From assembly GCA_964016885.1 (NCBI GenBank), contig OZ024744.1, forward strand, positions 86,924,001-86,988,000: a stretch of DNA of 64,000 nucleotides, in the 5' to 3' direction. The position numbers and the translations under genes were made by a program. Under the pieces are notes generated by a model, which saw only the letters and a program-made list of their open reading frames with translations, made no database searches and was not told where the DNA came from. This document shows, piece by piece, positions 8,718 through 29,547 of the stretch; the stretch's first letter is position 1; the number at the start of each line of letters is the position of its first letter. The stretch is from Eledone cirrhosa (lineage: Eukaryota).

Positions 8718-8923
8718 ATAGGAAAATGTTTTACCCCGACAGCAGATCTGAAGCTGTTTCGACGGCTATTTCTGGACTGAAATAGTCCAGAAATAGCCGT
8801 CGAAACGGCTTGAGTTCTGGCGTCGGGTTTAAACATTTTCCTATTTACCCACTCTACTACCCTAAGTATTGAGTACTCTGGTACGTTATGGTGAATCTGG
8901 CTCCTTACCACACTTCCGTCGTT
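8718..8923 (+). mobile_element. Hairpin-plus-tail element, family B, copy 1
   Basis: Inverted repeat 8718-8844 plus ~80-bp tail; (TA)n flanks; homologous to copies at 9220, 25711, 29343. Confidence 0.85.
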
Positions 8924-9219
8924 ATATATATATATACATATATATACATATATATATATATATGTATATATATATATATATATATATATACACATATATA
9001 TATTTATTTATATATATATATACATACACACACACACACACACACACACACATATATATATATATATATATATATATATATATATATATATATATATATA
9101 TATATATATATGTATATGTATACATACTTATATAGATAAAACTATCCACGACACAGAGTATTCACAACCTCTAACTGGATTACCTATAACGATAACTGTT
9201 ATCCCATATATATATATAT

Positions 9220-9415
9220 AACGAAGGAGCTGTGGTAAGAAACCAGATGGACCATAACGTGCCAGAGTACTCAATAATTAGGGTAGTAGAATGGGTAATA
9301 GGAAAATGTTTGACCCCCGACAGCAGAGCTCAAGCCGTTTCGACGGCTATTTGGAGACTAGAAATAGCCGTCGAAACGGCTTGAGCTCTGCCGTCGGGAT
9401 CAAACAGTTTCCTAT
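9220..9415 (-). mobile_element. Hairpin-plus-tail element, family B, copy 2
   Basis: Tail, then inverted repeat 9298-9415 with a small central deletion; (TA)n flanks. Confidence 0.85.
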
Positions 9416-9845
9416 ATATATATATATATATATATATAATAATGAACAGCTCGATTTGTCATGCCTTCATTACGTTTATTGAGTAGTGATGCGTGTTTCG
9501 CTATTTTTCAGCTCAAGATTCTATCTGTATTGATCTAGCCCGACTCTGGAATCAAAAGCTAGTCGGCCCTCTGTTAAGAACCTACAGTAACTGGGCATTA
9601 CGATCCGTATATTTATATATATCAATTTAACTTTAGTGGTTTACCACTGGAAAGAGCTGGTCATTCCGTGTAGTTAACTATGATAAGCACTCAAAAGCAC
9701 CCTGAAAAGCTCTCAACGTGGCGCAACTCATCCATTTATGATGTTGAATCATGTTGATGGTGCGCGAATGGAGTTAATTATTACTTTGATTAAAATAAGA
9801 GGAGGCCGGACTGGTAAAATTTCCTTAAAGTTCCATCGTTGCAAA

Positions 9846-9904
9846 ACACTATATATATTTTAATTGCCATTGTTACGTAAAATCCTGGTGACATCATCAG
9901 GTAC
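9846..9904 (-). ncRNA. Degenerate hammerhead-like motif
   Basis: Minus strand: gtac CTGATGA tgtcac...aaaa tatata TA gtgt; GAAA decayed to AAAA; resembles the 18682 motif. Confidence 0.3.
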
Positions 9905-10229
9905 GTATTGCATAATTAGTTACTCACTAAAATAATTACGACAAAACCAAACCCAGAAAATATAAGCAAAGAAAATAGAGAAAATATTCTATTCGGTGAT
10001 GGCCATGGAGTAGTCGTTATCGTTGCTATAGACCATCTCCGATTGTGTGGGTAATGGTATTTATGTATCAAATAAAGCCGGGCTATCGATTCTTTTTTTT
10101 TTTTTGTTTACTAGTCTGCTCATAACAGTTACAACTCTAGCTTATTTACAGCAGTTATGCAATATTTGCAAACATATATACGTGATATAAACGTCGTCAG
10201 GGAGTGTTTGTCTTCCTGCAACGGAAGGG

Positions 10230-11790
10230 ATTGTCGAAATGACTCATACAAGTGCATCCATACCATTACTAAATGTAGCAATTTTCAGAGTTGTTGCAAC
10301 ACGTAACTTCATGAAGAAGAAATCAGTCTAAAACTGACCGAGTGGCGGGAAATTCATAAAACTGAACACAGGTCAAAGTTCTCAACCAAGCTAATTAAAC
10401 CAAGAACAAAGACAGGACTGCGAAAGAAATATAATCTAACTAACATAAGAATAATGGTCTCTTATATAAGCACAAGGCCAGTAATTTGGGGAGATGGTAA
10501 AGTAGTTTAAATCGACCCCAGTGCATGACTGGTACTTCATTTTATCGACCCCCATAAGGATGAAAGGCAAAGTTAACCTCGGCGGGATTTGAGCTCAGAT
10601 TATAAAGAGCCGTAACTCTATGCTGCAAAGCATGGCGTCCGACCCTCTACCGATACTGCCAATCCAACTAACTTAAGAATAATAAAAACGAAACGTTCAA
10701 ATTACATTCAAAAGTAAATGCACCTCCTTGGAGAGGAAATATATATTAGTTTACGAAGTTAGCCAAAGAGAATCCTACAGCTTCGCCCGTCACTTGCTCA
10801 CTCAATAATATAAGATTTGTACGTTAGAAATACAATCCTATAACCCAGAATGTACACAATTTCATTATTAGTATGTCGACAGCACCATATACAAAAAAAA
10901 AAACAAAAAAAAAACATATATTAGTTGTGTTAATGCATCGATCGATTTATCTATTAAGTCTTTTGCCATATTCCCGGCACTATTACGCATGCTTTGATTT
11001 ATAATTATTGTACACAAGTTGAGGACTAAATATTTATTTCTCTGTCGTAATGTGAATACGATATTGAAAAGATCAGTTACCCTTCTTAGCAAGCAAATAC
11101 TTAGCTAGAGTGACAGCGAATTTGTGACATGCCCATGTATGCGAAAAGCCCTATTTTTTTCTTTTACAATAATTTCAGAGCTAATGATACCCACTAGTAT
11201 ATATCTATATATCCAAGTTCATATAGCAAAGGAAGGGAAAATAATGACAGCCGAGGAACAGATTAAATTCAATTTATCTTACATCAGTTTCCTAAAAGCC
11301 ATTTTATACAGATTTATAGTCCTCGATGACATACACATTCTAATCCTAAGATGATCCTATCCGTTCAATTCCTCGGTAGAAATATGCACTCTCTTTCCCC
11401 AATATGCAACAAAATAAACGCCTCATTCCCAATCAAATACAACCTTATTTTAAAAGACACCACACTCACTCTTTATGCTCCCTCCCCCTCTCTCTGTTTT
11501 TCAATCTCAATCACTCTATTACTTTCAAATAAGCACACACACACATATACACATATAAAGACAGATTGAAAATCAGTGCCGAACATGCAGCATTACAGAA
11601 ATATATCGACAACTGCTGTGAAGATCTTACACACGTATGCTTAGAATTTCTGTAATGAATCAAAATACAGACGACATACGTTAGGTTTTCATGCAAGAGA
11701 ATAACTTCTCGTCTATTTAATCTCCCATTTAACCTTAAAAGCATTTGATCAAGTTGTGGATAAGAGTGCATAAAGGAGAAGGGAGCTGAA
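10230..11790 (-). pseudogene. Possible ancient Tc1/IS630-like transposase remnants, interrupted
   Basis: LDQMLLRLNGRLNRR...ENL near 11700 resembles the SDEAxFxLNGxVNR...ENP motif; decayed PxRSxDL...DFF-like segment near 10310-10360. Confidence 0.25.
10455..10667 (-). mobile_element. SINE family S1 (longer variant)
   Basis: Same head and core, with extra ggggtcgattt segment; similar to 54618-54835. Confidence 0.85.
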
Positions 11791-28203: not shown

Positions 28204-28345
28204 TTTGTATTTTTGTTTTGCGAGGTTTTTGATATGAAATCGTGTGTCGAAACAAATATTGTTATACTTGGGGAGGATCATATTGTTGTAATAATATTGC
28301 CAGAATTATTACAACAATATGACCCTCCCCAAGTATAACAATATA
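28204..28345. repeat. Fold-back fragment of a PLE pLTR end in (TA)n
   Basis: Inverted repeat ~28256-28345; left part is the reverse complement of ~23400-23478. Confidence 0.8.
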
Positions 28346-28462
28346 TATATAAATAAATAAATATATATATATATATATATATATATATATATATATATAT
28401 ATATATATATATATATATATATATATATATATATATATATATATATATATATATATATATAT

Positions 28463-29110
28463 ACTACACTGCTAATACAGAAACCAGCACAGATAGATAA
28501 TACAATGGTTTGACAGTAAACGCCACCCCGCTCCCACAATTTAAAGAACTATTTCGGCCGTCGGCACTTTGCTTGACCGGACTTATTCCGCGCGCACGTG
28601 CGCTCTGCTGAATACCTCAGTTATTCAAAACAACGAACAGCAGAGGACACGTATCTCTCCTCTCCGACAGATAACCCACCCCCTACCCCCCAACCCCCGG
28701 TAAAAAAACCCAGTGATGGATGTGAATCCGAAATATAGGGACAATTAAATCTCTCCCAAGGTAACTCTATCTCGTGTTATTTTTATTTTTTATGCTCTTT
28801 CCTACGTTCCTCTACACACTATACATTTCATTCTACATTCACTTACATCTCTCTCTCCACCACCGGATCTTGTTACCCGGAGAATTACCCATCTGCATTG
28901 TTGAGGCTTCCAAAACGACCAAAAGAAAATAAATCTTATTATTCCACAATGCTTCAAGCAAACTTCAATATTTTCTTATATATATATTAAACTTTAATCT
29001 GTTATTTTAATAAATGTTTGCTGTATGGTTCTTATATATTTGATACATAAGTATATATCCTTACCGAGCCCTCATTGGATTTTAATTTTCACATTTATTA
29101 TTATTATTAC
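28463..29110 (+). repeat. pLTR-like segment
   Basis: Decayed HHR-like ccc agtgat ggat gtga atcc gaaa ta ta ggg at 28709-28740; 28987-29105 matches pLTR end 32251-32368. Confidence 0.55.
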
Positions 29111-29120
29111 TATATATAGA

Positions 29121-29316
29121 AGGGCGGTGGATTGGCAGTATCGGTAGAGAGTCGGACACCATGCTTTGAAGCATAGAGTTACGTCCCTTTTTGATCTGAG
29201 TTCAAATCCCGCCGAGGTTAACTTTGCCTTTCATCCTTACGGGGTCGATAAAATAAAGTACCAGTAATGTACTGGTTAATTGCTGGCCTTGTGCCAAAAA
29301 GTAGAAACAATTATTA
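29121..29316 (+). mobile_element. SINE family S1, full length
   Basis: A-box tggcagtatcggta, B-box gagttcaaatccc, shared core and tail. Confidence 0.9.
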
Positions 29317-29342
29317 CTATATATATATATATATATATATAT

Positions 29343-29547
29343 AACGAAGGAAATGTGGTAAGTAACCAGATGGACCATAACGCACCAAAGTACTCAATAC
29401 TTAGGGTAGTAGAGTGGGTAATAGGAACGAGTAGGGCCCCGACGGCTGAGCTCAAGCCGTTTCGACGGCTAATTCTGGACTAAATTAGTCCAGAATTCGC
29501 CGTCGAAACGGCTTGAGCTCAGCCGTCGGGGTCCTACTCGTTCCTAT
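29343..29547 (-). mobile_element. Hairpin-plus-tail element, family B, copy 4
   Basis: Near-perfect inverted repeat 29421-29547 plus tail; (TA)n flanks. Confidence 0.88.

What the first reader, a model, noticed from the sequence alone, without database searches (positions are those of the whole stretch)
8718..29547. Family B: ~200-bp hairpin-plus-tail element with covarying arms and nested mini-hairpins
Seen: four copies (8718, 9220, 25711, 29343), each a ~60-bp-arm palindrome plus ~80-bp tail within (TA)n, with a conserved centre and ends. Arms differ between copies yet stay complementary within a copy (ggaaaatgttt/aaacattttcc versus ggaacgagtagg/cctactcgttcc). Each arm contains agccgt-ttcg-acggct, and the ACGGCT/AGCCGT motif recurs up to six times, allowing branched cruciform folds. 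Inference: either one arm is re-copied from the other at each mobilisation, or the structure is under selection. The asymmetry does not fit a MITE or a SINE.
Basis: partly seen in the sequence, partly recalled or inferred. Interest (0 to 1): 0.75.

Follow-up and report, generated by a model that had tools for sequence, protein, structure and literature searches.

The report
Folded stubs of a Penelope retrotransposon
These 200-base hairpins are the cut-short ends of a known kind of jumping gene (a Hydra-type Penelope retroelement), present in over ten thousand copies, and their junctions suggest that each likely forms when two DNA copies, started 80 bases apart, run off the front end of the element's RNA and are joined head to head.

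Summary
The four copies are real and belong to a family with at least 13,374 short hairpins genome-wide. Extending the longest loops led to the parent: a 3,531-bp tandem unit with an intact 716-aa RT + C-terminal GIY-YIG ORF bearing every Hydra-clade PLE motif. Each arm is the pLTR end and carries the right half of a U3-A8 hammerhead; the recurring ACGGCT/AGCCGT are its stems. The 80-nt tail lies between two fixed end points. Arms match within copies because both are copied from one subfamily's RNA at insertion; the palindrome then decays. Either arm can be the longer one, which argues for two independently primed cDNAs rather than fold-back. About 96% of young arms stop at one boundary inside the ribozyme's loop II, often with a non-templated G, likely the capped RNA 5' end (inferred; no RNA start data). 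The inverted-arm-plus-tail architecture is published for PLEs; the scan reported similar stubs, and a cap reading, on other DNA. Verdict: new variant of a known kind.

The parts
8719..8778 (-). Copy A, tail-less inverted arm (pLTR end, stops at the proximal end point)
8784..8843 (+). Copy A, tailed arm; begins at the boundary A; holds right half of the hammerhead (stem II 3' strand, GAAA, stem III, GUC, stem I 3' strand)
8844..8924 (+). Copy A, PLE tail (81 nt) ending at the distal end point
9219..9298 (-). Copy B, PLE tail
9299..9414 (.). Copy B, hairpin: tailed arm about 9299-9359 (-), tail-less arm 9360-9414 (+)
25710..25789 (-). Copy C (older subfamily), PLE tail
25790..25918 (.). Copy C, hairpin: tailed arm 25790-25853 (-), tail-less arm 25855-25918 (+); arms 79% alike
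29342..29421 (-). Copy D (young subfamily), 80-nt PLE tail; 94% identical to the parent unit
29392..29415 (-). Copy D, first of two small bulged hairpins, 6 nt past the proximal end point (its twin lies 4 nt past the distal end point in the parent); candidate RT start signal
   Evidence: sequence; role inferred, lead from earlier findings
29422..29484 (-). Copy D, tailed arm; right half of hammerhead at 29437-29471; boundary A at 29481
29485..29546 (+). Copy D, tail-less inverted arm; right half of hammerhead at 29499-29531; boundary A at 29487

Best explanation
Each copy is a 5'-truncated, head-to-head insertion of the end of a Hydra-clade Penelope-like retroelement into (TA)n, likely made by two reverse transcriptases that prime on both nicked target strands, start 80 nt apart on one RNA and likely run off its capped 5' end after about 60 and 140 nt. 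Shown: identity with the end of a 3,531-bp RT + GIY-YIG unit; two fixed end points, one per side; a sharp stop boundary; heterogeneous junctions; same-subfamily arms. Inferred: the GIY-YIG nicks both strands of (TA)n; the TA at each end point anneals to the target; an internal promoter starts the mRNA at the A of TT(A)GT inside hammerhead loop II, so priming at the 5' copy of the start sites gives the 200-bp stubs and priming at the 3' copy gives the kilobase insertions; the two cDNA ends are joined by end-joining with 0-2 nt overlap or short insertions. The stubs are dead on arrival; mRNA from that start would carry only half a ribozyme.
For: Parent and ends: all four window copies match unit 3374-3521; 90 of 106 or so aligned piece ends in 50 long loci fall on the two end points (47 tailed, 43 tail-less); an independent DNA data set shows loose (AT)n ends at the same two places, 80 apart, and opposite-strand joints at the boundary. 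ORF: 716 aa, fold closest to TERT, Hydra motifs in 110-115 of 117 aligned proteins, no CxxC in the GIY-YIG core in 0 of 117. Two cDNAs: tail on one side in 48 of 50; tailed arm longer 19, shorter 17, equal 12 (hand count); tail-less side 16 kb against 287 nt in L195; arms joined to other families in L111-L113, L117, L121. Same RNA: same subfamily in 30 of 32 young pairs against 11.6 by shuffling. Boundary: 105 of 111 arms stop within 16 nt of the anchor, none between 34 and 238; 9,867 young arms against 369 that pass it. Long arms pair with long arms; at most 1 of 20 unpaired long arms has a boundary-class partner, whereas independent stalling predicts most would. Cap-like G: single-base junctions G:C 22, A:T 2 (p 3.6e-5); G at -1 on at least one arm in 37 of 50, where the parent has T (hand count). 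In vitro, a Poseidon PLE cleaves and extends both strands from two internal start sites that define its tail (PMC11167929).
Against: No RNA evidence: only assembled contigs were available, and the one RNA run did not cover the ORF. In unselected arms ending at the boundary A the next base was C 10, G 3, A 1, not G-rich; a two-step templated slip could also give the G:C junction; the position control was swamped by a subfamily with its own 4-nt palindrome and did not cover single-base junctions. 14 of 111 arms run 1-4 nt past the boundary. No downstream promoter element matched by eye; the initiator reading is recalled from insects. Pfam and PDB sequence searches found nothing for the ORF; GIY-YIG rests on motifs and one sub-threshold hit in a relative. 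No phylogeny against named Hydra proteins. The hammerhead fold is the MFE but no more stable than shuffles (z 0.14). Cross-family joints could be later deletions.
Confidence: 0.75

Rival explanations
1. Same PLE origin, but the inverted arm arises by self-priming: one cDNA (or an antisense template) folds back and copies itself, and the endonuclease trims one end to leave the tail.
For: Proposed for rotifer Penelope palindromes (PMC3846280) and for the tail (PMC8557442); arms share subfamily in 44 of 50; some junctions sit on short palindromes.
Against: Fold-back from the tailed cDNA cannot make the tail-less arm longer, yet it is in 17 of 48 short (11 by 3 nt or more) and 7 of 20 long insertions, and by 16 kb in L195; arms from two subfamilies or families occur (L018, L057, L295).
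Confidence: 0.1
2. Two-cDNA PLE insertion as above, but the common stop is a reverse-transcriptase stall at hammerhead stem II, or a splice acceptor, not the RNA's 5' end.
For: The boundary lies in the 3' strand of an inner hairpin of stem II and follows a TTTAG; D. virilis Penelope has an intron ending at helix I (PMC4209133, PMC2377424).
Against: Independent stalling with 3.7% read-through predicts long arms paired with short ones; they pair long with long. No constant upstream exon sequence at junctions; a lone extra G dominates.
Confidence: 0.1
3. A non-autonomous short element that transposes as a 200-bp unit from a few master copies.
For: About 20 of the 30 best hits to copy D share its loop, and some junctions recur.
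Against: Those hits were chosen by likeness to D out of thousands; in position-ordered copies 43 of 50 junctions differ, and recurrent ones occur in different subfamilies.
Confidence: 0.04
4. A DNA transposon with asymmetric inverted repeats (Helentron or MITE-like), or a structure kept by selection.
For: Discrete ends and TA flanks.
Against: Sequence is the end of an RT-encoding unit with 5'-truncation gradient and tandem arrays; arms decay with age.
Confidence: 0.01

Closest known systems
Hydra clade of C-terminal EN+ Penelope-like elements, e.g. Hydra-1_Obim (Craig et al. 2021, PMC8557442; passages, sections 6 and 11, supplement rows)
   Same: RWK-like, DKT, CxCX5C, CxxC and CxH motifs, no CCHH, (TA)n target, hammerhead, tandem and inverted 5'-truncated copies, one-sided tail.
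   Different: Unit 3.5 kb (clade generally under 3 kb); tail 80 nt against 30-40; U3-A8 core with a 6-bp stem III; a different family from Hydra-1_Obim, whose listed ribozyme differs and whose file holds neither of two family motifs; dominance of fixed-length stubs is not described there.
Poseidon element PAc of Anolis carolinensis (Frangieh et al. 2024, PMC11167929; parts 1-2 of 4)
   Same: Two internal RT start sites bounding the tail, both strands cleaved and extended, uncleaved RNA used as template, predicted dimer.
   Different: Other clade; start sites inside the ORF there, about 80-160 nt before the ATG here; no run-off stubs reported in the parts read.
U3-A8 hammerheads of Schistosoma Cercyon PLEs (Cervera and de la Pena 2014, PMC4209133; parts 1-2 of 4)
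   Same: U3-A8 core, long helix II, short helix I, paired motifs on opposite strands 100-700 bp apart.
   Different: Here helix III is long enough for a monomer fold, and the stubs hold only the right half.
Penelope insertions of Adineta vaga (PMC3846280; passages)
   Same: Inverted pLTR, optional tail, palindromes and microhomology at inverted junctions, Inr-like motif in pLTR.
   Different: Authors favour self-priming; target-site duplications visible there, hidden by (TA)n here.
L1 twin priming and cap-derived 5' G of L1/Alu; retroviral strong-stop DNA (recalled, no call)
   Same: Two primed cDNAs joined head to head; extra G; short run-off cDNA from an internal start.
   Different: L1 arms do not overlap in sequence; strong-stop DNA is an intermediate, not an inserted product.

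Membership tests
EN+ Penelope-like element | Single ORF with telomerase-like RT | tested here: met
   716 aa, FDI/YRDD motifs; top fold match TERT 3du5, E 1.8e-8
EN+ Penelope-like element | GIY-YIG endonuclease | tested here: met
   C-terminal VIY..YIG with conserved R, H, E, N; Pfam only sub-threshold in 1 of 10 relatives, none for the query
EN+ Penelope-like element | Tandem or partial-tandem units, inverted 5'-truncated copy | tested here: met
   3,531-bp arrays with inverted partner
EN+ Penelope-like element | Tail at one end | tested here: met
   48 of 50; 80 nt rather than 30-40
EN+ Penelope-like element | Hammerhead motif in the pLTR | tested here: met
   Type I, UUGANAA core with N = G/A/C across subfamilies; three-way MFE. 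Rfam found none in the window, which holds only halves
EN+ Penelope-like element | Ribozyme self-cleavage and retrotransposition activity | not testable with these tools
   Copies at 99.5-100% identity with intact ORF suggest recent activity
Hydra clade | CxCX5C linker; CCHH absent | tested here: met
   114 of 117; CxxC in core 0 of 117
Hydra clade | RWK and DKT motifs; CxxC and CxH around E and N | tested here: met
   112, 115, 110, 112 of 117; query has RWR, DKT, CNLC, CKH
Hydra clade | Insertion into (TA)n | tested here: met
   127 of 148 tail-less ends followed by TATA
Hydra clade | Phylogenetic placement with named Hydra RTs | not tested
Neptune/Nematis clade | CX2-5CxxC linker and CCHH motif | tested here: not met
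Naiad clade | N-terminal endonuclease, no canonical hammerhead | tested here: not met
MITE / Helentron | Fixed internal structure, DNA-transposase partner | tested here: not met
   Variable junctions, RT partner
Non-LTR retrozyme | Non-coding tandem units each with a whole hammerhead | tested here: not met
   Stubs are single, inverted, half-ribozyme

The most novel reading that the evidence does not exclude
These stubs are integrated strong-stop DNA of a telomerase-related retroelement: a dimeric RT primes both target strands at two hairpin-marked sites near the capped 5' end of its own mRNA, copies the cap as an extra base and inserts the pair, about 25 times more often than it makes a long copy; the promoter sits inside the hammerhead, so the mRNA escapes self-cleavage while read-through transcripts keep a whole ribozyme.
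Probability: 0.5. Interest if true: 0.65.

Novelty: new variant of a known kind. Interest (0 to 1): 0.45.

Why it matters
How Penelope-like elements make their inverted arms and one-sided tail is called undefined in PMC8557442. This family offers a young intact ORF, two exact start sites, a predicted RNA start and over 13,000 junctions, so dual priming and cap run-off can be tested directly. Practically, tens of thousands of such hairpins (about 8 in 700 kb of blind sample) are easy to misfile as MITEs or unknown repeats and are potential double-stranded RNA in host transcripts.

Tried and rejected
Rfam: no match. Rolling-hairpin flip/flop: rejected, loops are truncation junctions. Search for a canonical CUGANGA upstream gave 24 hits that were junction artefacts or other families; the true core is U3-A8. 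My first clade call, Neptune, was wrong. A-to-I editing as source of an arm mismatch shared by D's best hits: wrong direction and explained by query bias. Pfam, PDB sequence and profile searches uninformative. RNA runs: one RNA run with a small share, contigs only, no ORF cover; says nothing on expression. Intra- versus inter-copy identity 0.93 versus 0.81 on 154 copies was set aside as support because its filter demanded complementary ends and symmetric copies were counted twice; one search replaces it, though it too requires the conserved core on both arms. Position control for the extra G inconclusive. Literature searches for the run-off or twin-priming reading in PLEs found nothing pertinent; Repbase and Dfam could not be searched, subscription papers and bioRxiv supplements were not seen, so the family may already be catalogued.

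Full report
Observation. The four copies lie at 8719-8924, 9219-9414, 25710-25918 and 29342-29546, each a 116-129-nt palindrome plus an 80-nt tail between (TA)n runs. Own-partner arm identity is 0.79-0.96, cross-copy 0.62-0.90. The window is G000:C28:86924001-86988000 of a 3.0-Gb genome; octopus-type is my guess from recall and was not tested. The family is genome-wide: 13,374 hairpins with an exact 32-nt core, 0 for the control; a blind sample of 70 stretches of 10 kb held 22 hit clusters, 7 complete stubs and one shortened one, or roughly 30,000 genome-wide. Rfam gave nothing.

Finding the parent. Loops varied in length, and the longest gave extra parent sequence. Patterns from it occurred 945 and 369 times, as opposed pairs and as arrays of period 3,531 bp. 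The unit holds one intact ORF of 716 aa from its first Met; copies are 99.5-100% identical; all four window copies match the unit's end, copy D at 94%. Pfam and PDB sequence searches were blank; 2,215 of 7,998 scored proteins matched at E 1e-10, none usefully named. A model from 117 aligned proteins (pLDDT 93.6) matched telomerase RT best. I first read it as Neptune; earlier scan notes pointed to Hydra, and the motifs listed in PMC8557442 section 11 are met: CxCX5C 114, RW[KR] 112, DK[TS] 115, CxLCxxE 110, CxH 112, core CxxC 0, of 117. It is not Hydra-1_Obim by the ribozyme row and two motif searches in that supplement.

What the motifs are. Upstream of the arm both parents carry CCCC-UUGANAA, a long helix II, GAAA, a 6-bp helix III, GUC and GGGG; N varies between subfamilies. 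The MFE is this three-way junction but is no more stable than shuffles. The U3-A8 core is published for Schistosoma PLEs (PMC4209133). The stubs keep only the right half, twice; that accounts for the recurring hexamers. A small bulged hairpin follows each end point, at 6 and 4 nt, as earlier scan notes report for other Hydra families; I did not test its covariation, and free folding of the window tails did not recover it cleanly.

Ends and arms. In 50 long loci the two end points account for 47 and 43 piece ends, with a handful elsewhere; two-armed insertions nearly always carry one of each. Blast ends ran into TATA, so the tail is 80 nt, as the loose ends in two independent DNA runs confirm. 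Of 50 position-ordered stubs, 48 have one tail, 1 two, 1 none; 43 junctions differ; 31 join with 0-2 nt overlap, 19 with 1-20 inserted nt. The tailed arm is longer in 19, shorter in 17, equal in 12 (hand count). In long pairs the tail-less arm reaches further in 7 of 20 and by 16 kb in L195. Fold-back from one tailed cDNA, the self-priming idea of PMC3846280, does not give this; two primed cDNAs do, in line with the in vitro behaviour of PAc (PMC11167929). Arms share subfamily in 44 of 50 (shuffle 9.7) and 30 of 32 young pairs (shuffle 11.6), so they mostly come from one RNA or one source; subfamilies active at different times would also give this, though their tail divergences are similar, 0.3-0.9% in partly biased samples. 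Mismatches between arms look like ordinary decay.

Why 200 bp. Of 111 arms not chosen by loop, 105 stop within 16 nt of the anchor, at or just around the A of TT(A)GT in loop II; three stop at 25-33, three run 238 or more. Genome-wide, 9,867 young arms against 369 past the boundary, patterns not strictly nested. Stalling would pair long arms with short ones; they pair long with long, and at most 1 of 20 unpaired long arms has a boundary-class partner. Where both arms reach that A, single-base junctions are G:C in 22 and A:T in 2, and 37 of 50 have G at -1 where the parent has T (hand count; one search gave G 54, C 37, A 9 of 100 rows). Against this: unselected arms gave C 10, G 3, A 1, a templated slip is possible, and the control failed. 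I read the boundary as a capped RNA 5' end; the initiator likeness and the cap-G precedent are recalled. No RNA data could test it. An earlier scan note reached a cap reading for another family in another genome; I saw it after forming this idea (note 71).

Comparison and verdict. Membership in EN+ PLEs and, by motif, the Hydra clade is met; phylogeny untested. Architecture, (TA)n target and U3-A8 core are published. Different here: an 80-nt tail, a monomer-sized helix III, a likely promoter inside the ribozyme, and stubs that outnumber long arms about 25 to 1. Searches found no paper with this reading; PMC13282606 (part 1 of 3 and passages), PMC2377424 and PMC12602865 (passages) and bioRxiv 10.64898/2026.07.22.740005 (part 1 of 5) do not describe it in what I read; Repbase, Dfam, subscription papers and preprint supplements were out of reach. 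PLE origin about 0.97; full mechanism 0.75; new variant of a known kind; interest 0.45.

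Noticed in passing
window 60437-60655; also 53262-53470 and 27341-27471: A second, unrelated hairpin-plus-tail family in (TA)n with half a hammerhead; it matches the end of a GIY-YIG-bearing PLE in L112 and L045 at 86-91%.
   Followed up: partly
window 31085-35509: Textbook PLE insertion: inverted pLTR piece plus a near full-length copy, ORF 32415-34476 frameshifted, 44% identical to P0001.
   Followed up: partly
window 3371-4143, 20045-21402, 21122-22487 (all -): Further decayed PLE ORF pieces related to P0001.
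   Followed up: no
window 13101-14725: Very young (99%) non-coding unit of about 590 bp in partial tandem plus inverted arrangement between (TA)n; looks like a non-autonomous PLE derivative.
   Followed up: no
window 18538-18848; L111, L121: Short hammerhead-bearing element that is joined head to head with this family's tailed arm at the same point in two loci.
   Followed up: partly
window 8406-8596, 49633-49813: Another repeat with a decayed hammerhead-like motif ending in (AC)n, directly left of copy A.
   Followed up: no
L200, L206, L207, L208, L388: Five long tailed arms stop at unit 162-211, about 85-135 nt into the ORF; perhaps blocked by protein bound near the 5' start sites.
   Followed up: no
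L018, L057, L311: Fully symmetric copies with a tail on both sides; in L018 and L057 the two arms differ at subfamily sites.
   Followed up: partly
window 2645-2827, 8052-8241, 29126-29320 and others: Abundant tRNA-SINE-like repeat (label from recall), about a dozen copies.
   Followed up: no
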